A stretch of DNA of 64,000 nt from Octopus vulgaris (lineage: Eukaryota): NCBI GenBank assembly GCA_951406725.2, contig OX597831.1, positions 70,680,001-70,744,000 on the forward strand, written 5' to 3'. The translations under genes and the position numbers were made by a program. Shown here piece after piece: positions 3,845 through 63,625 of this stretch. The stretch's first letter is position 1; each line of letters begins with the position of its first letter. The notes beneath the pieces were generated by a model. It saw only the letters and a program-made list of their open reading frames with translations. It was not told where the DNA came from and did not search any database.

Positions 3845-4130
3845 TGAGGAAGCCTTGTCTCCCTTCCAAAGCAAGACACCTTTTTTGCCTCAATACTGCT
3901 CCCCCAGCTGTAGGGTCTCGTTCTGCAAGTTACTTGGTGAACCTCATTGATGCTGGTGCCATGTAAAAAGCACCAAGTACACATTAGATGAGAACATCCA
4001 GCTGTAGAAACCATGCCAAAACAGACATCAGAGACCAGTCAGTCTTCTGACTTGTGAATTCCTGTCAAACTCTCCATGCCTACTTGGAAAATGGATATTA
4101 AATAATGATGATGATGATGATGATGGTGAT
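3845..4130 (+). mobile_element. Decayed RTE 3'-end-derived repeat
   Basis: CATCCAGCTGTAGAAACC...GGAAAATGGATATTAAA-(TGA)n, the reverse complement of the family at 2612. Confidence 0.6.
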
Positions 4131-4144
4131 TATATACATATAGA

Positions 4145-4469
4145 ACTTTGGAAAACTGTTTACAACCTATATCTGCCTTTAATGGAATTATCTCCAATAT
4201 TTCATGAGTATAACCTCACCCACTAAGATGTCTGGAGAACTCATATGTATTTTAGCTGATGAGTACGGGACACTTTTATATGCTGCAATTTTTGCAACTT
4301 GTAATAAAGCCTGTCTTTGTATGAAACAATTGTACTAAAAACTAATCCATTCTTGTTGCTTCTTTCTCGTGTATATACCTTCCTGCTTCCATCTTTCCTG
4401 AGCGCCTATTAATAATAATACTGTAATTGTTCCACGTGTTGTTGTTTTTTCTGTTTTCCCGTTTGGATT

Positions 4470-4474
<5 letters not shown>
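4145..4474 (+). mobile_element. PLE pLTR-like terminus inserted at (TA)n
   Basis: Hammerhead motif, TTTCCTGAGCG and GTTTGGATTAA end abutting (TA)n; last ~90 bp homologous to 63375-63464; 5' boundary uncertain. Confidence 0.6.
4250..4340 (+). ncRNA. Type I hammerhead ribozyme motif (PLE/retrozyme-type minimal stem III)
   Basis: Stem I TTTTAG 4250-55 with CTAAAA 4335-40; CTGATGA 4256-62; stem II GTACGGGACA/TGTCTTTGTAT (G-U rich, one bulge); GAAA 4323-26; C-AATT-G palindromic stem III; GTA cleavage triplet 4332-34. Confidence 0.7.
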
Positions 4475-4534
<60 letters not shown>

Positions 4535-5910: not shown

Positions 5911-6294
5911 GGAAGCACTCCATCGGTTACGACGACGAGGTTTCCGGTTGATCCGAATCAACGGGACAGCCTGCTCGTGAAATGAACGTGTAAGTGGCTG
6001 AGCACTCCACAGACACGTGTACCCTTAACGTAGTTCTCGGGGATATTCAGCGTGACACAGAGAGTGACATGGCCGGCCCTTTGAAATACAGGTACAACAG
6101 AAACAGGAAGTAAGAATGAGAGAAAGTTGTGGTGAAAGAGTACAGCAGGGATCGCCACCATCCCTGCCAGAGCCTCGTGGAGCTTTAGGTGTTTGCGCTC
6201 AATAAACACTCACAACGCCCGGTCTGGGAATCGAAACCACGATCCTATGACCGCGAGTCTGCTGCCCTAACCACTGGGCCATTGCGCCTCCACA
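5911..6294 (-). mobile_element. SINE family C (tRNA-headed), full length, tail type 1
   Basis: Minus-strand head GGAGGCGCAATGGCCCAGTGGTTAGGGCAGCAGACTCGCGG...GTTTCGATTCCC; TSD TTGAAACCAAT at 5900-5910 and 6295-6305. Confidence 0.85.
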
Positions 6295-32869: not shown

Positions 32870-33013
32870 ACAGAATTCTCCAAAATTCCAAAATTGAGCT
32901 TTTAAGTCCATGGTTACATGTTGGAACAATTTCAGAGCGTTTGTTAATAAGATTATCATTGCATAACATTATGTCTTGCGTTTCTTCGAAGCAGAGTTTG
33001 CAGAGTTTGCATA
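32870..33013 (-). pseudogene. Penelope-like element ORF C-terminal fragment
   Basis: CKLCFEETQDIMLCNDNLINKRSEIVPTCNH resembles the PLE C.LCL.EK..I...LLNKRSE...C.H motif. Confidence 0.7.
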
Positions 33014-33293
33014 GAATACAGCTTTTGTTGGACCATATTAATGCAATGATGCGTATAATATAAGTAACATTCAACAATTATCAGCTGGTAATGATGAACC
33101 AAAACAATTGTAATGGTTTGTAATAAAGCCTGTTAATTTCACCTTTTCATATCAAAGTCATGTCACGCACACACACATACACACACACAAACACACACAC
33201 AAACACACACACCTCAAGCATATTTGTACTGGTAACAAGTTTGTATTTATAGCCATCACTGCTTATTACTTTCATCCCATACAATATACACAT

Positions 33294-35080: not shown

Positions 35081-36915
35081 TACGAAGTACTTTCCAGAAC
35101 TTTTGAGACTGTTTCAGGAGACGCATATATTAATTTCAAAGAAATACAAAACTCTAATCTCCTTCAAAGTAAGATCCTCTGACTTCAATGCACTTGAAGT
35201 ACTCCAGCCGCTTCTTGAAGGCGCCATGGAAGTTGTCCAAAGTGAAAGCATCCAGGTGTCTTGTCACAGCCTCTTTCATCTTTTTAGTGACTTCAGAACA
35301 ATTGCCCCTAAGCTTCAGCTTGAGGAATGTCAAAAAGTCACAGGGAGCAAGATCTGGGCTCTAAGTTGAGCAGGGACAGTTTTGATGCTCATCTCTGTCA
35401 AGTAGTTGGCTACCAGGAACATTGTCTTGGTGGAGGTACTAAGGCCTTTTGTGAAGAAACCATTTCCTGAACCTCCACAAACCATTCTCTGTTTTACTGT
35501 CTGATCTGAAGGAACCCAGTGGGTATAGATGATGCCCTTACAACTGAAAAAGCAGTATCGTGATGAGATTCCTGGTGGACTTACTTGCCTGGTTTTCCTG
35601 AGTCTGGGTGAGCCGGAATGATTCCATCAGGCATTCTGTCTCTTGGTCTCTGGATCATAACAATAGATCCAGCTTTTGTCACAGGTCACTAGAGTCCCAA
35701 ATATTCTTGGACTGGAGGTAATGAGTTTGACCATCTTCCTGCTGTCGCCAACAGATATTTACTTCTATTCATTACTAAACACCCTGGGAGCAAACTTTAC
35801 ATAAATTTTGCCCGTGTTTAAATCTTCATCAATAATTCTGAATACATTTGCCACACCAACTCCAAATTGTACGTTCATCGTCTTTATAGACATATGATAG
35901 TCATTATCCAGAAAATTGTGAATTTTCTCAACCAGCTCTGAATGTTCTGAAAACCCTCTACCTCCAACAGTCTCATTGTCCCTCACCGCTTCTCTCTTAT
36001 CCTGAAATGTCTTGTACTAGTGAAACACAGATGCTCAGCTCATACAAATTAATCCATTAACACTCTGGTGCATTTCATAAGTTTCCGTACCAATTTTGCC
36101 CTGTTTAACACAACTTTATTGCATAACAAGTTTCTAAATTGCCTTCAGAGGCGTTCAAAGAGTTGTCACAGCCATCTCGTTCAATCTAGAATAAAAAATG
36201 TTGGCATGTCAATTATTAGCTGTATAGTAATGATATTCTATGAAGGTCAGCTTGAAAAATTGCACATTTAATTAGGTGTCAGAAGACATGGCACTCACTG
36301 AGCAGAAACCTTCATCATGCCAAGTTCAGTGTGCAGAATATTCTCAACTCTCTCATGGAATATACTAATAGCATTGGTTATTTGACTTATAGTCAATTGC
36401 CTGTCATCCATCACCATGTGGTGAACACAATCAGTGTTTTCCACAGTAGTGGCAGTTGTAGCCTGTCCAGACCTTGGGTCATCTTCAAGATTCTTTTTCT
36501 CCCTCCTAAACTCAGCTGCCAACGTTTGCACTGTTGATAAAGCTTGAGCATCGTCCCCAAATATAGCAACCATGTCAGCATGAATGTCCTTGGGGCCTGA
36601 ACATTTTTTCTGCAGGTACTTAATAAAACCATGAAGCTAAATTTGAACCATTTTAAAGAGAAGTCATTACTAATTATTTTTGTAGTCTTCATTAAACAGT
36701 CAGATGTGAGTTCACCTGGAAAAAAGCGATGTAGTACTTAATAAGAACGGTTCAGATTTCACAGCTCTAGCATCATTCTTTCATAATCAGCCTATGAACT
36801 TTTCAGCTAGCCCTCATAAAATTATAATAATCTTGAACAGTCATAACTACCTCTCCTAAAAGAAATTCTTATACCTTCTCTAATGCAGCTCTTATAAGAA
36901 GTCTCAAATATTACA
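35081..36915 (-). mobile_element. Decayed mariner transposon with a second nested mariner
   Basis: ORF 35765-35986 (..FGVGVANVFRIIDEDLN..KIYVKFAPRVFS), VTCDKSWIYCYDPETKRQ near 35690-35630; degenerate ends. Confidence 0.75.
36239..36818 (-). mobile_element. Internally deleted mariner (HTH region only)
   Basis: ORF 36295-36573 AAEFRREKKNLEDDPRSG..ILHTELGMMKVSAQ; degenerate TA-flanked TIRs TATGAGGGCTAGCTGAAAAG. Confidence 0.8.
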
Positions 36916-38246: not shown

Positions 38247-39528
38247 TATTGGCTCATCCCATAACTAATGTGGTTTTTATGTACTTCTTTTATTTTTCAA
38301 AATTAAAATAAACAAAGTTCTTTTTTCATCTAAAATATACTCTCTTTCATTTTCTATAATACTCTTCCATCTGTCTGTAGACTTGCAAAGCCCTCTTCCA
38401 AAAGTCACTTGTCCCGTGATGAAAATTACTCTTCCAGTACTGTTCTGACTTCATCTACAGAATTCATATTTTTTCCATTAAATTGATTTTGAAGACTGTG
38501 GAATAAATGATAATCAGATGGAGCAAATATGGTCAGTGGGGTATCTTTTCCAATTCAAATTGCCTCCAGCCTTTGGAATGTTATCCTCATTGTATGTGAC
38601 TAAGCATTATCCTGATGGAAGAATACCTTTCGTCTTGAAATCAAAGATGGTCGTTTTTCTTCTAGCACTGACTTATGCTGCTCAAGCTGCTCGCAGTAGA
38701 TCTCCTTTGTTATCATTTGGTTTGGGTTTAAAAGTTCAAAGTGGACTAAACCTTTCATATCTCACCAAACAGATAACAACTCCTTACATGGGTGAAGACG
38801 TTCTTTCACCTGGGGTCCCGGTGTTTCTCTTTTCCCTGCCCATTGTCTTCGGCACTTGATATTTTTATAGAGAACCCATTTCTCATCACCAGTCACTATT
38901 CAGTCCAATAAAGGTTCATTCATGAAATGTGACAGCAAAGAAGAGCACACATTCACTCTCTGCGTGTGATTAGACTTGGAAAGTTGATGAGGAACTCATC
39001 GACACAATTTGCTGACTTTTCTGATGGCTCGCAGGTGTCAATGAATGGTTGAATGACCAAATCCAAGTTTCTCTGCTTGTTCCTCAACAGTTACAATGAG
39101 ATTTTGTTCCACCAGGGTTTGCAGGACGTCCTCATCAAGCTCTACAGATGTTCTAGGATGTGACTTGTCTTCTAGGCTGTAGTTTCTGGCTTGGAATTTC
39201 TGGAACCACTGTTGATACTGGCTTACGCTTATTGTCCAATCCCCATATACTGCATTAATATTCCTCCCACTTTCTGTTATGTTGTTGCCATTATTGAACT
39301 CATAAAGCAAAATATGCTGAATATGCTCCTTTGTCACTTGCATTATAGCTTTGGAAAAATAGCTGTTCAAGTCAAACTACACTCTTGCAAACTTGCACTA
39401 AGAATAAGTAGAATGCAAAATTACTACATGCTATTATAGAAATTTGATGCAGGTAGTTTATACAATCCTCCTCCGACTTTAAGTTTAAGCACTTGAAAAA
39501 ACCACATTATTTATGGGATGACCCAATA
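38247..39528 (-). mobile_element. Full-length decayed mariner (Mos1-like), ~1.28 kb
   Basis: ~30-bp TIRs TATTGGCTCATCCCATAACTAATGTGGTTTTT and AAAAACCACATTATTTATGGGATGACCCAATA with terminal TA; ORF 39038-39370 HILLYEF..WFQKF; VTGDEKWVLY; APSDYHLFHSLQN. Confidence 0.9.
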
Positions 39529-40339: not shown

Positions 40340-40397
<58 letters not shown>

Positions 40398-40398
<1 letters not shown>

Positions 40399-41030
40399 CG
40401 GGAAGCTTTATGAAAATAAACAAAAGACGAAGGCAGGTGGAAAACAAACGAACAATTGTATTAGTATGGCGCTCAGGAAATATAAATAAAACAAGTCTTT
40501 AACGTTTCGAGCCTACGCTCTTCAACAGAAAGATACAGAGAGAGAAAAAACACAGAAAGAAGGAGAGAAAAAAAATGCGTGCAGTAGCTAACGAATCAAC
40601 ATGGCGATCTGATTTCGGCCAGAGGTCAAAGATCAAACATGAGACGCGAGAGCGAGATAAGGGGAGATAATAGGGTTGATAAAAGGGTTGAGGGACCAGC
40701 TAAAAGTGCGTGGGAGGGGTCTGGATGTGTGTATGTATAGGGTTGGTGTATGTATTAGTATGTATAAGGGTGTGTGTGTGTGTGTGTGTGTGTATGAGAG
40801 AGTATTAGTGCGTAAGATTGGTCTGGACGTGCGTATGTATGGGGTTGGTGTATGTATTAGTATGTATTAGTATGTATTAGTACGTATTGGTATGTATAGG
40901 TGTGTGTGTGTGTGTGTGAGAGAGTATAAGTGCGTATGCGGGGTCTGGACGTGTGTATGTATAGGGTTGGTGTAAGTATTAGTATGTACTGGTATGTATT
41001 AGTACGTATTAGTATGTATTAGTTCGTGTG
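40398..41030 (-). mobile_element. PLE pLTR/retrozyme-like insert with hammerhead motif and ~100-120 bp x3 tandem repeat
   Basis: 3' end abuts (TA)n; hammerhead-like motif 40496-40533; TTTCCTGAGCG at 40480-40470; repeat units begin GGTCTGGA at ~40719, 40820 and 40942. Confidence 0.7.
40496..40533 (-). ncRNA. Minimal hammerhead-like motif (A6-to-U core variant)
   Basis: Minus strand TCTTT-CTGTTGA-A-GAGC-GTAG-GCTC-GAAACGTT-AAAGA. Confidence 0.6.
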
Positions 41031-41812
41031 TGTATATATATATGCGTGTGTGTATATGTTTGTGTGTCTGTGTTTGTCCTCCTAGCATTGCTTGACAACC
41101 GATGCTGGTGTGTTTACGTCCCCGTCACTTAGCAGTTTGGCAAAAAGAGACCGATAGAATAAGTACTGGGCTTACAAAGAATAAGTCCCGGGGTCGATTT
41201 GCTCGACTAAAGGCGGTGCTCCAGCATGGCCGCAGTCAAATGACTGAAACAAGTAAAAGAGTAAAAGAGAGTATGTGGTGAAAACATGGTGGAAATATTT
41301 TTGGATCAACTTCTAAAAGACAAAATGCCATTATAAAACTGTTTATCTTCGTGCTCTGTTAGTTTGATATTTAGAACTGATTATAAAATGGTGTTCAACA
41401 GAAAAAGCTGTAGTTATTTTTATAAACTGCAATAACCATTCTTTGAATTTGGTTGGAATACAGTTTAGGATTAATGGTCAGTGACCACTTGAATCCAGGC
41501 TGAAATTATGTGTTGAATATTATATTCAAGTCACAATCATTTATGTATAATGTTTAACGATATGTTTCTGTTTGCTGTCATATTAAAGAAATAGTGTTGG
41601 TGTTGGAGGCGATCAAACAATAAACAGGGAGGGAGTGAGTCACAGGAGAAAATGTAAAACAGAACTACAAACACTTTGTAGACAATGGGGGGGGGGGGGG
41701 AGGGGCTATACACTCCACAAGGCTCGAAGCCTGGTGTAATCTGATGCAGCTATTCTAAGTGCAAATGAAACTATTCACATTAATATGGAAATCAGCTGAT
41801 TATGTATACAAA

Positions 41813-45131: not shown

Positions 45132-46027
45132 TATGAGGTCTGATCAATAAGTATCCGGACTGTTGACATAGTAATGAAGCTAAAGCACACAGAGTAAAAC
45201 TGCTTGGCACAGATTGACCTTGAACTCTGCTGTGCACGCGCACAAAGTTTTAACATTCTAGCTCACTTCTGCTGTTTACAGCAGTGCTTGGAAGGAAGGT
45301 GTGTAGCATGTGATCGTCGCATTGACCATGACAGAGAAAGTTGCATGGTAATCCCGCTCAGAGACCTACGCAAGGTTGCAGAAAATGTATGGAGATGAGT
45401 GTATGGGCTGCACACAAGTGTATGAATGGTTCAGATGATTTCAAGATGGCAAAAATAATGCCAATATTGACGACATTCTCAGAGACCCGCAACCGACAGA
45501 ATTGAGAAAAACTTCACAGATGTGCATGCAGCTGTGAGGGAAAATTGTCGAATCCCCATCCATGAGTTATCAGAGGATGTGCAGATTAGTTATGATTCAG
45601 TTCAGTCCATTATCACTGAAGATTTGGGTATGAGATGCGTGTTTGCCAAGTTTGTGCCAAAACTGCTTTCGTCTGACCAAAAAGACACTCAAGTTTCAGT
45701 TTCACAAAATCTCTTTCATTGTGTCGAGAATGACGAAAACTTTTCGAAAACTTTGCATAGGCCTCTGAGCAAGTATCGCCAAGCTTTTGGCAAAATTTGA
45801 GGCAGATTCTCTGCTCGACTTTCTCTGTCATGATCATTGCAACGATTACATGCTACACACCTTCCTTCCACGTGCTTCTGTAAATAGCAGAAGGGAGCTA
45901 GAATGTTAAAAGTCAGTGCACATGCACTGCAGTGTTCAATGTCAATCTGTGCCAAGTGGCTTCACTTTGCATGCTTTAGCTTCGTTACCATAGCAACAGA
46001 CTGGAAGCTTATTGATCAGACCATGTA
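45132..46027. mobile_element. Non-autonomous mariner derivative with inverted ends over 200 bp
   Basis: TATGAGGTCTGATCAATAAG..CTTATTGATCAGACCATGTA; ORFs 45204(+) and 45716(-) mirror each other; internal HTH remnant VQSIITEDLGMRCVFAKFVPKLLS; inserted in an old SINE A at ~44975. Confidence 0.85.
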
Positions 46028-50379: not shown

Positions 50380-51330
50380 CAAGTTTCATGCAGTAATCTC
50401 AAAAGATTTGGCTTTGAAGACGCTTTTTTGTTCTTTTTATGAAGTATCCTGTCCATTATGTCCCAGAGGTGTTCAATAGGGTTCATATCTGGTGACTGGC
50501 TTGGTCATGGAAGCTTTTTAATGCCATTCTCATCCAACAAATCTTGGGTCATTTTAGTAGTATGACAAGGAGCCCCATCTTCCATAAATAGTCTTCTTTA
50601 ATTATTTTACTACTGGAGAAAATCTGAAGGAGTCTTTTTTGCAATATGTACACATATTTATTTGAGTTTATGTTTCCCTCACACTCCACCAGCTCTGATT
50701 GACCATTGCTTCAAATTGCTCTCCAGACCATCATAGAATAGCTGCTGTGTTTCATTGTTGGCTGCAATCTTTTCACATCGAATTCTTCATCACAGGGTCT
50801 CCAGACCCACACTCAACCACTGTCAGGAAATATGGCAAATCTGGACCCATCCGAGAATATGAAGTGTTCCAAAATGCTAGTGGCCTTTCCACCATCTCAC
50901 TGGCACAATCTTTTCTCCGCTTGATGTTGGCTGATTGAAGAAGTGGCTTCCTTCTTGCTGCTCTGCCAGAGTAACCAAGTTTTAGAAGATACCTGACAGC
51001 TATTCTGAGACTGACATCAACTTGTTCTGCTATGTCAGAGGCCTTGTAACAAGGATTATCCTCCACACTTCTTTTAGCAAAGAGAAAAGTCCTGTCAGAG
51101 GCTCTGGTTGATCTGGGTGAGGAGATGGGAACTCCTTCCCCTCTCTGGTGAGAGGCACAATCACTCTATTAACTGTAGAAAGTGGGAATCATAGGTTGTC
51201 TGCGATTTTACGCTATGTCCACCTTCAGAATGACCCTTGATATGGCCTCTTTGAAATCCAGATAATTCCAAGACATTTTTTCTACATGGCATGATTAAAT
51301 AGTCACATATAGAACCTGAGACATAAAAAT
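50380..51330 (-). pseudogene. Tc1 (DD34E-type) transposase relic
   Basis: LGYSGRAARRKPLL, FMEDGAPCHT and PSQSPDMNPIEHLWD motifs on the minus strand; stops and frameshifts. Confidence 0.85.
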
Positions 51331-52400: not shown

Positions 52401-52489
52401 TGAGGAAAAATATAAACTTTTACAAGTTAGAATAAACACAGAAAGATGTTTTATGGGACATATGTTTACATCTCTCATGTCTGTGTATA

Positions 52490-53070
52490 TATAAACCTTA
52501 CCATAAACCCAATGAGAAGCTTTCCAACATACACAAACAGTCTTGTTACCCCAGCCCCCATAATATTTAAAACCTGATAGCCAACATTAGCAACAGAATA
52601 TCTAATCTCTCTATCGCTAAAGAAATTTTCAAGAAAGCAGCCCCCTATTACAACAAATCTCTAGCCAATAATGGTTTGAATGGTTAATTAATTTACAACC
52701 CATCTAGTAATAATATGAATATCAAAAATGGACCTAAAATAGACCTAGGAGAATAATTTGGTTTACCAGCCCCTCTTTTTCCCTTAATGTTAAAACCAAC
52801 AGAGGTAAAAAAAAATTCCTGTCTCTCTTAGATAAACATTTTCCCATTAATCACAGGCATAGAAAAATATTCAACAGGCACTCAGTCAAACTATCATGTA
52901 GCTGCTGCCCTAATATGAAGAGCATCATTACACCAAACACAGCCAATAGCTTACTCCCAGTTATAACTGTCTAGACTCAGGAACCTGTCCTATTGACCAG
53001 AGGTGCATGATTAACTCTGTCATATATGAGGCAGAAGTTACTGCAATGCTAGATGACAATATGACATGAA
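52490..53070 (+). pseudogene. Penelope-like element relic (RT thumb to GIY-YIG linker)
   Basis: [41 protein letters not shown] and [38 protein letters not shown]. Confidence 0.8.
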
Positions 53071-53439
53071 AATCATTTAATGTCCTTCAGTTCTTCCATA
53101 TGGGTGTGGATTGGATGATTTCAGTATCCAATGAACCAGAAAATTGCATTGAGCTATTTGTCTAAATCTTACCACACAGAACTAAAGAAATAAAACAAAT
53201 TACTATATAGCCATAAAGAGACCTGCTTAAACACTCAGCCACAGCTCATGGCTGTGGCCCAGGACTCAGTTCAATGTTGCTTACAGAATATGAACTTATG
53301 ATTGCTTTTCAAAATCTCATTGATTTGTTTATAAAGGGTGTTATAAGTCCATGTAATGGGACACAATAATTTTAACACTCATCGTATTTAAACTTCAATT
53401 GAAAACACAAAGTCATCTCTCCCAAGCGCTGACTAATAC

Positions 53440-63252: not shown

Positions 63253-63625
<373 letters not shown>

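What the first reader, a model, noticed from the sequence alone, without database searches (positions are those of the whole stretch)
4250..4474. Hammerhead-bearing inserts ending at (TA)n share an invariant TTTCCTGAGCG at a fixed distance from the junction (also 40398-40533 and 63330-63464)
Seen: three otherwise divergent inserts, two on + and one on -, share the order hammerhead motif, then TTTCCTGAGCG (4394-4404, 40480-40470, 63381-63391), then a T-rich spacer of 70, 72 or 73 nt, then (TA)n. Known: Penelope-like element pLTRs and retrozymes carry minimal type I hammerheads with palindromic loop 3, and some PLE clades insert at microsatellites. PLE ORF relics occur here at 32870 and 52490. 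Inferred: the 11-mer at constant spacing is a cis signal for the PLE RT/GIY-YIG enzyme or for 3'-end formation, shared by several (TA)n-targeting, possibly non-autonomous families. I do not recall this motif being described.
Basis: partly seen in the sequence, partly recalled or inferred. Interest (0 to 1): 0.8.

Follow-up and report, generated by a model that had tools for sequence, protein, structure and literature searches.

The report
Conserved motif in Penelope-type repeat ends
The 11-letter motif is real and is the best-kept part of a 100-base tail shared by three related repeats, likely ends or offshoots of Penelope-like jumping genes; it likely helps their copying enzyme find its start point, but that is untested and one of the three inserts is probably two elements stacked together.

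Summary
The 11-mer, the 70/72/73-nt spacing and three hammerhead-like folds are in the sequence. The inserts are not otherwise divergent. B and C align end to end, and A's last 100 nt are 74% identical to C, so constant spacing is largely shared ancestry. Insert A is probably composite. Public contigs show its long-stem hammerhead running into (TA)n at 4377 without the 11-mer, while 4375-4474 matches a short-hammerhead family and begins at that family's predicted cut. C belongs to a very abundant family, in which the 11-mer is not invariant. The motif is more conserved than its flanks in the three-way test (904 of 200,000 shuffles) but not pairwise. Best reading: 3' ends or non-coding offshoots of Penelope-like elements, with the motif likely an RNA loading site for internal reverse-transcription start, as shown in outline for Anolis Poseidon (PMC11167929). 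No genome was available, so the genome-wide test was not run.

The parts
4140..4377 (+). 3' end of a repeat family with a long-stem-II type I hammerhead; 5' boundary approximate; family ends at (TA)n near 4377
   Evidence: Depth rises stepwise from 4133 to 4238 in X1, X4 and X9; 4 contigs of X13 run into (TA)n behind 4377, one spanning 4298-4377
4250..4340 (+). Hammerhead A: stem I 4250-4255/4335-4340, core 4256-4262, stem II closing 4263-4266/4319-4322, palindromic stem III 4326-4333, predicted cut after 4334
   Evidence: cleavage not tested
4375..4474 (+). Likely 5'-truncated copy of a short-hammerhead family related to C, beginning at that family's predicted cut
   Evidence: BLAST homology to C starts at 4374/63360; 2 contigs matching from 4394 carry a short hammerhead upstream; depth at 4392 is 3-6% of that at 4339
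4394..4404 (+). 11-mer, 19 nt after the start of the piece, 70 nt before (TA)n
4475..4532 (.). (TA)n at the junction of insert A
40398..41033 (-). Insert B, about 635 nt, no evident ORF, inside the TA run of an abundant repeat pair; 5' part holds 2.3 copies of a 122-bp CA-rich unit; 5' boundary approximate
   Evidence: Anchor gap 738 against 41-71 in 11 of 13 anchor pairs
40496..40533 (-). Minimal hammerhead B (extra A before stem II, ACGT palindrome, A6 changed), predicted cut after 40501
40470..40480 (-). 11-mer, 20 nt after the predicted cut, 72 nt before (TA)n
40346..40397 (.). (TA)n at the junction of insert B
63260..63464 (+). Insert C, about 205 nt, member of a very abundant family; 5' boundary abuts a masked microsatellite and is not firmly fixed
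   Evidence: 18,908, 6,553 and 5,630 contigs laid in X4, X9 and X13; peak summed depth about 1e5 times the unique flank, which is not a copy number
63330..63364 (+). Minimal hammerhead C (U4C in about three quarters of family depth; ACGT palindrome in 92-98%), predicted cut after 63360
63381..63391 (+). 11-mer, 20 nt after the predicted cut, 73 nt before (TA)n
63465..63514 (.). (TA)n at the junction of insert C

Best explanation
The 11-mer is the most conserved block of a homologous 100-104-base segment that runs from a predicted hammerhead cut site to a (TA)n junction in three related repeats, which are likely 3' ends or non-coding offshoots of Penelope-like retroelements, and it likely acts as a single-stranded RNA site that loads the element's reverse transcriptase so that copying would start internally 70-76 bases further on. 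Shown: homology, spacing, hammerhead anatomy, insertion of B into an existing TA run, abundance of C and of A's two parts. Inferred from known PLE biology: a GIY-YIG endonuclease nicks (TA)n and the RT primes on an internal RNA site downstream of the hammerhead, usually on uncleaved RNA (inserts B and C span the ribozyme). Inferred from one case: the piece 4375-4474 was copied from a self-cleaved RNA and landed in the short TA tail of an unrelated long-stem hammerhead element, which would place the needed signals within the 100 nt after the cut. My odds: PLE-related families 0.85; A composite 0.75; motif under selection 0.65; RT-loading role if selected 0.55-0.6.
For: Homology: B-C 71% over 131 columns, A-C 74% over 108; A-C stays significant with the motif removed (0 of 2000 shuffles). 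Register: cut to motif 20, 20 and 19 nt; cut to junction 103, 104 and 100 nt. Conservation: 48 of 107 columns invariant, longest run is the 11-mer, reached in 904 of 200,000 column shuffles; in B-C the three longest identical blocks are the 11-mer and two hammerhead pieces. No shared fold downstream of the cut (0 pairs). Minimal hammerhead with an extra base between 9 and 10.1, G10.1-C11.1 and palindromic 15.2-16.2 matches PMC4209133. Precedent: in Anolis Poseidon the cut is at +26, RT starts at +111-118, the active RNA needs only +20 to +172 and ribozyme mutants still insert (PMC11167929). Composite A.
Against: Only three copies were compared in full, and the motif was chosen after the fact. 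Pairwise B-C the run is unremarkable (14,530 of 100,000 shuffles), and the shuffle test assumes even mutation rates in slippage-prone U-rich DNA. The motif varies within family C, and other stretches of C also show no variant above 10%. No ORF was linked to B, C or A's 3' piece. The Anolis start site is an AC-rich stem-loop, whereas these segments are U-rich with no shared structure. A's junction at 4375 also lies in a 3-nt ATA microhomology with the TA run, so it need not record cleavage. A 4350-4374 resembles B's upstream tract weakly (71 of 2000 shuffles). C copies do not step up in depth after the cut.
Confidence: 0.4

Rival explanations
1. No function: the 11-mer is simply the longest surviving identical stretch in three families descended from one ancestral PLE end, and the spacing is inherited.
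For: End-to-end homology; pairwise run not significant; variants inside the motif; spacer length varies by about 3 nt within family C; A's hammerhead family reaches (TA)n without the motif.
Against: Three-way run reached in 904 of 200,000 shuffles; B keeps the motif exactly while the rest of its downstream segment has almost lost similarity to C (649 of 2000 shuffles with the motif removed).
Confidence: 0.3
2. The motif is a DNA-level internal promoter element of the pseudo-LTR rather than an RNA signal.
For: PLEs have internal promoters in this region (PMC8557442 section 15); no RNA structure is shared; the opposite strand holds a GGAA core like an ETS site (recalled, not tested).
Against: No promoter or start-site data; the RNA status of run X13 is a guess and contigs cannot show starts.
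Confidence: 0.13
3. Insert A is one element whose long-stem hammerhead family has two RT start points (4377 and 4474), so the 11-mer lies in an optional tail and is shared by structurally different hammerhead families. This concerns A only and is compatible with a signal role.
For: Two start points define the PLE tail; one X13 contig leaves A at 4369 into another 120-nt tail whose first letters resemble the block behind the 11-mer; earlier notes report two fixed ends in this genome (unchecked).
Against: Depth at 4392 is 3-6% of that at 4339 and 2-12% of that at 4436 in all four runs; 2 contigs matching from 4394 carry the short hammerhead upstream; homology with C starts at C's cut.
Confidence: 0.2
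4. The motif is recognised in target DNA by the GIY-YIG endonuclease, or is constrained as coding sequence or a splice acceptor.
For: The Drosophila Penelope tail was needed for endonuclease recognition and the Anolis ORF starts inside the hammerhead; one frame reads FPER in all three; the motif holds the only AG in two of three segments.
Against: B landed in a TA run whose host repeat has no such motif; no ATG precedes the motif after the cut, A's frame stops 8 codons after FPER begins, and B and C differ by one base in loop II; GAG acceptors are rare (recalled).
Confidence: 0.08

Closest known systems
Minimal type I hammerheads in pseudo-LTRs of metazoan Penelope-like elements (Cervera and De la Pena 2014, PMC4209133; parts 1-2 of 4 read)
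   Same: B and C have the extra base between 9 and 10.1, G10.1-C11.1, short stem I and palindromic 15.2-16.2; most such motifs occur as solo, probably truncated copies.
   Different: Stem II is 4 bp; family C mostly carries U4C; no downstream motif is described in the parts read.
Poseidon of Anolis carolinensis, PAc (Frangieh et al. 2024, PMC11167929; abstract, main text and start of methods read; supplements searched without hits; figures not seen)
   Same: RT starts internally 85-92 nt after the hammerhead cut, inserts into AT-rich DNA, uses uncleaved RNA, and needs a short RNA region after the ribozyme.
   Different: There the region is the start of the ORF and an AC-rich stem-loop; here it is 100-104 nt, U-rich, apparently non-coding and unstructured, with a short conserved sequence.
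Hydra clade of PLEs, including Hydra-1_Obim (Craig et al. 2021, PMC8557442; sections 6, 11, 15, passages, supplement parts 2, 52, 53 of 59 and term searches)
   Same: (TA)n targeting; hammerhead A has the 3-4-bp near-palindromic stem III seen in all 26 Hydra rows of File S2 and a short cut-to-end distance (about 40 nt, against 36 counted by eye for Hydra-1_Obim); both ORF relics in the window are Hydra-like.
   Different: None of the 26 rows has the 2-bp ACGT stem III of B and C; the 11-mer occurs 0 times in the supplement text; no Hydra ORF is linked to any insert.
Animal non-LTR retrozymes (Cervera and de la Pena 2020, PMC7229834, passages; Li et al. 2026, 10.64898/2026.07.22.740005, parts 1-3 of 5)
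   Same: Short non-coding type I hammerhead repeats related to PLE ends, often as monomers.
   Different: Defined by tandem units with two or more hammerheads; no end-to-start joint was listed for C and all three inserts are single.

Membership tests
EN+ Penelope-like element (3' end or derivative) | Type I hammerhead in sense orientation near the 3' end | tested here: met
   family restores the ACGT palindrome in 92-98% of depth
EN+ Penelope-like element (3' end or derivative) | Interspersed repeat with fixed 3' end and 5' truncation | tested here: met
EN+ Penelope-like element (3' end or derivative) | Insertion into microsatellite | tested here: met
   B fills a TA run that is empty in 11 of 13 anchor pairs; all three end at (TA)n
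EN+ Penelope-like element (3' end or derivative) | Linked PLE RT and GIY-YIG ORF | tested here: inconclusive
   No ORF match at the inserts, but the copies are short and the families could not be extended without a genome
Hydra clade | Hydra-type RT/EN motifs (RWK, DKT, CxCx5C) linked to the element | tested here: inconclusive
   Met for relatives of the relic at 52424-53078, not linked to A, B or C
Hydra clade | Canonical hammerhead with 3-4-bp stem III | tested here: met
   Met by hammerhead A only (against File S2)
Hydra clade | Canonical stem III in the 11-mer-bearing families B and C | tested here: not met
   B and C have the 2-bp ACGT type; so they are not filed as Hydra
Neptune or Penelope/Poseidon clade | Clade-specific ORF and linker | not testable with these tools
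   No full-length partner could be fetched; assignment of B and C would rest on hammerhead type only
Non-LTR retrozyme | Tandem units each with a hammerhead | tested here: not met
   Single copies in the window; no end-to-start joint among 13 listed joints for C; contigs drop rare forms, so absence is not proven
Non-LTR retrozyme | Circular RNA and self-cleavage | not testable with these tools
   No raw RNA reads among the 24 runs listed
Pol III SINE | tRNA-, 5S- or 7SL-derived head with A and B boxes | tested here: inconclusive
   No such Rfam row at the inserts among the 150 shown; runs of 7-8 T in B and C would stop Pol III (sequence; termination rule recalled)

The most novel reading that the evidence does not exclude
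The 11-mer, with the AATAC and TTGTTC blocks behind it, is a short sequence anchor by which a Penelope-type reverse transcriptase measures out an internal start about 70-76 nt downstream, akin to template positioning in telomerase RNA, and the 100-nt hammerhead cleavage product that carries it is a minimal mobile unit. A looser TCCTGA or TGAGY core seen by eye near the ends of several published Hydra consensuses could be the clade-wide form.
Probability: 0.25. Interest if true: 0.65.

Novelty: new member of a known kind. Interest (0 to 1): 0.35.

Why it matters
How PLE reverse transcriptases choose an internal start on their RNA is open: the one in vitro study narrowed the binding region to about 150 nt without naming a motif in the text I read. 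A short conserved sequence in a 100-nt non-coding segment would make that directly testable and would explain how non-coding repeats borrow the enzyme. If the motif is only inherited, the finding reduces to ordinary PLE-type ends, with one very abundant family whose hammerhead mostly carries U4C.

Tried and rejected
No genome held. Raw-read run X21 laid 3 of 12.9 million reads on C and was uninformative. Motif plus (TA)5 at 55-85 nt: 0 loci in viral contigs; 60 loci in metagenome contigs, 0 of 60 with BLAST similarity to A, B or C, 2 of 60 with a loose core-like pattern upstream, 5 of 60 at 70-73 nt, some loci redundant: chance matches in a collection with little animal DNA, so no test of the idea. 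No further copy in the window by nhmmer (next best E 2). No consensus structure; single folds gave z -2.27, 0.76 and -0.74. TTTATTGAGCG-like words at 6206 and 9629 lie in another repeat and TGAGCG at about 54917 has no hammerhead or motif context: rejected. A 16-nt match between A and 33118-33133 is opposite in sense to that relic: taken as chance. Pfam, word search and atlas were blank for relic peptides; the full scan found 2181 relatives. Spurious-peptide search to extend C found nothing. TTCCTGAG occurs 7 times in the Craig supplement, once in the Hydra-1_Crog tail: about chance level, kept as a lead only. In print: the exact string is in 15 papers whose titles are unrelated (listing only); other searches showed no description of the motif. 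Repbase, Dfam, the O. vulgaris repeat library (PMC13282606: passages and a 5,371-character supplement without sequences) and bioRxiv supplements could not be seen and may hold these families.

Full report
Observation. The 11-mer occurs exactly three times in the window, at the stated places, with no further match at one mismatch; 0.25 are expected and 0 of 100 shuffles reach three. The distances to the first (TA)6 are 70, 72 and 73 nt. I call the inserts A (4250 region), B (40398-40533 region, minus strand) and C (63330 region). The window looks like an octopus genome; that label rests on repeats I recall and on earlier notes, not on a test of mine.

Hammerheads. Rfam showed none among the 150 of 195 rows listed, so I checked by hand. 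A: 6-bp stem I, CTGATGA, long stem II, GAAA, an 8-nt palindromic stem III, predicted cut after 4334. B: 5-bp stem I, CTGTTGA, an extra A, 4-bp stem II, GAAACGTT, cut after 40501. C: 4-bp stem I, CCGACGA, extra A, 4-bp stem II, cut after 63360. B and C fit the minimal hammerhead of PLE pseudo-LTRs (PMC4209133). A resembles the hammerheads of the Hydra clade (File S2 of PMC8557442). In C's family the palindrome ACGT is restored in 92-98% of summed depth, and the canonical U4 is present in 23-26%, so C4 is the majority form. U4C is reported to lower activity in vitro yet permit viroid infectivity (PMC3088659, passages). No cleavage was tested here.

The inserts are related. B and C align over 131 columns at 71% (E about 5e-7) and are collinear over about 200 nt (119 of 209 columns identical). 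A and C align over 108 columns at 74% (E about 1e-13), and this holds with the motif removed (0 of 2000 shuffles). From the predicted cut, the motif lies 20 nt away in B and C and the junction 103 and 104 nt away. Constant spacing is therefore expected from common descent. Loose ends behind 63437 in 20, 65 and 24 contigs suggest a common C variant with 3 more bases in the spacer (my reading), giving about 70-76.

Insert A is probably two elements. Its own hammerhead is 59 nt from the motif and 140 nt from the junction, and the part before 4375 has no similarity to C (1633 of 2000 shuffles score as well; against B, 71 of 2000, a weak low-complexity match). Similarity to C starts at 4374 against 63360, which is C's predicted cut. 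In public contigs, 4 records of run X13 pass from A's hammerhead side straight into (TA)n behind 4377, and 2 records that match from 4394 carry a short B/C-type hammerhead ending just before ATACC. Depth at 4392 is 3-6% of that at 4339 and 2-12% of that at 4436 in all four runs; smaller dips of about threefold occur elsewhere in A, and a locally diverged copy can cause dips, so depth alone is not proof. The simplest reading is a long-stem hammerhead element ending near 4377, followed by a 100-nt piece of a C-like family that begins at its cut site. The junction overlaps an ATA microhomology with the TA run, so truncation by microhomology gives the same picture. One contig leaves A at 4369 into a different tail, which I cannot explain.

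Abundance and targeting. C is covered by 18,908, 6,553 and 5,630 contigs in X4, X9 and X13, with peak summed depth about 1.1e5 and 1.9e5 times the unique flank in X4 and X9; the tool warns that this is no copy number. A's body shows a 5' truncation gradient. B lies within the TA run of an abundant repeat pair: the anchor gap is 738 nt against 41-71 nt in 11 of 13 anchor pairs, the remaining one being a partial copy upstream of a normal one. B thus inserted into an existing TA tract whose host lacks the motif. No tandem joint was listed for C.

Is the motif constrained? In the three-way alignment 48 of 107 columns are invariant and the 11-mer is the longest run; 904 of 200,000 shuffles of column labels reach it. 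B keeps it exactly although the rest of its downstream segment barely matches C (649 of 2000). Against this, the pairwise B-C run is reached in 14,530 of 100,000 shuffles, the test is after the fact and assumes even rates, and within family C the first base varies in 12-20% and the last in 3-10%. The conserved region is better seen as about 35 nt: the 11-mer, then AATAC-like and TTGTTC-like blocks. No shared secondary structure or reading frame was found.

PLE relics. The peptide at 52747-52971 has 2181 relatives at E up to 0.001. Of the six relatives of 500 aa or more, all have YRDD, 3 RWK and 4 DKT or DKS, and one scores weakly to GIY-YIG (E 0.0009, below the curated cut-off), matching the Hydra traits named in PMC8557442. 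A profile from the 17 of 150 relatives that reach past the linker also hits 33008-32898 on the minus strand (E 0.0014). Neither relic adjoins A, B or C, so they show that PLEs were active here, not which one moved these repeats.

Mechanism. In Anolis Poseidon the RT starts inside the RNA, 85-92 nt after the hammerhead cut, at AT-rich DNA, needs only +20 to +172 and does not need cleavage (PMC11167929). The layout here is parallel: junction 100-104 nt after the cut, inserts that span the ribozyme, a weakened core in the most abundant family. An internal start needs a cis element, and the best-kept block after the cut is the natural candidate. I put this at 0.4 overall, against 0.3 for no function, 0.13 for a promoter element and 0.08 for target recognition, coding or splicing. 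Every functional step is inferred.

Novelty. The kind of element is known (PLE ends and their non-coding derivatives, (TA)n targeting, minimal hammerheads). I found no description of this motif in the searches listed under Tried and rejected, but Repbase, Dfam and the published octopus repeat library were not visible. Earlier notes of this scan describe related themes in the same genome; look-ups by sequence with C and B and by place returned nothing. Verdict: real, mostly explained by homology among related PLE-type ends, with a plausible but unproven signal role; interest 0.35.

Noticed in passing
window 52424-53078 (+): Decayed Hydra-clade PLE ORF (RT thumb, linker, start of endonuclease); 147 of 150 relatives hit it by tblastn.
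   Followed up: yes
window 33074-32871 (-) and 30214-30119: Decayed C-terminus of a Hydra-like endonuclease, with a second 86% identical piece in the opposite orientation.
   Followed up: partly
window 63335: About three quarters of family C carries U4C in the hammerhead core; the rest has canonical U, above the level of other CpG positions.
   Followed up: partly
window 4369 (run X13, record 13): A contig of depth 507 follows A to 4369 and continues for 120 nt with another tail whose first 30 letters include a stretch like the block behind the 11-mer; unexplained.
   Followed up: no
window 40585-40529 (-) and 63277-63333 (+): Pyrimidine tracts of 82-84% directly upstream of both minimal hammerheads; the first AG after the tract in C lies inside the core, so splicing there would remove half the ribozyme. 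Speculative.
   Followed up: no
window 41033-40748: 2.3 copies of a 122-bp CA-rich unit at the 5' side of insert B.
   Followed up: partly
window 3944-4027: Fragments of another very abundant repeat with go-back joints from 4026 to 3951, just upstream of insert A.
   Followed up: no
window 35765-36737, 39038-39376, 45471-45800, 50773-51165: Frames that look by eye like decayed mariner/Tc1 transposase pieces (resemblance recalled).
   Followed up: no
window 6290-5920 (-) and 9650-9400 (-): Two copies of another repeat, the first with a tRNA-like head by eye, holding TGAGCG words unrelated to the 11-mer.
   Followed up: partly
PMC8557442 File S7: By eye, TCCTGA or TGAGY words lie near the ends of the six novel Hydra consensuses, closest in Hydra-1_Crog; chosen after the fact and not tested.
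   Followed up: partly
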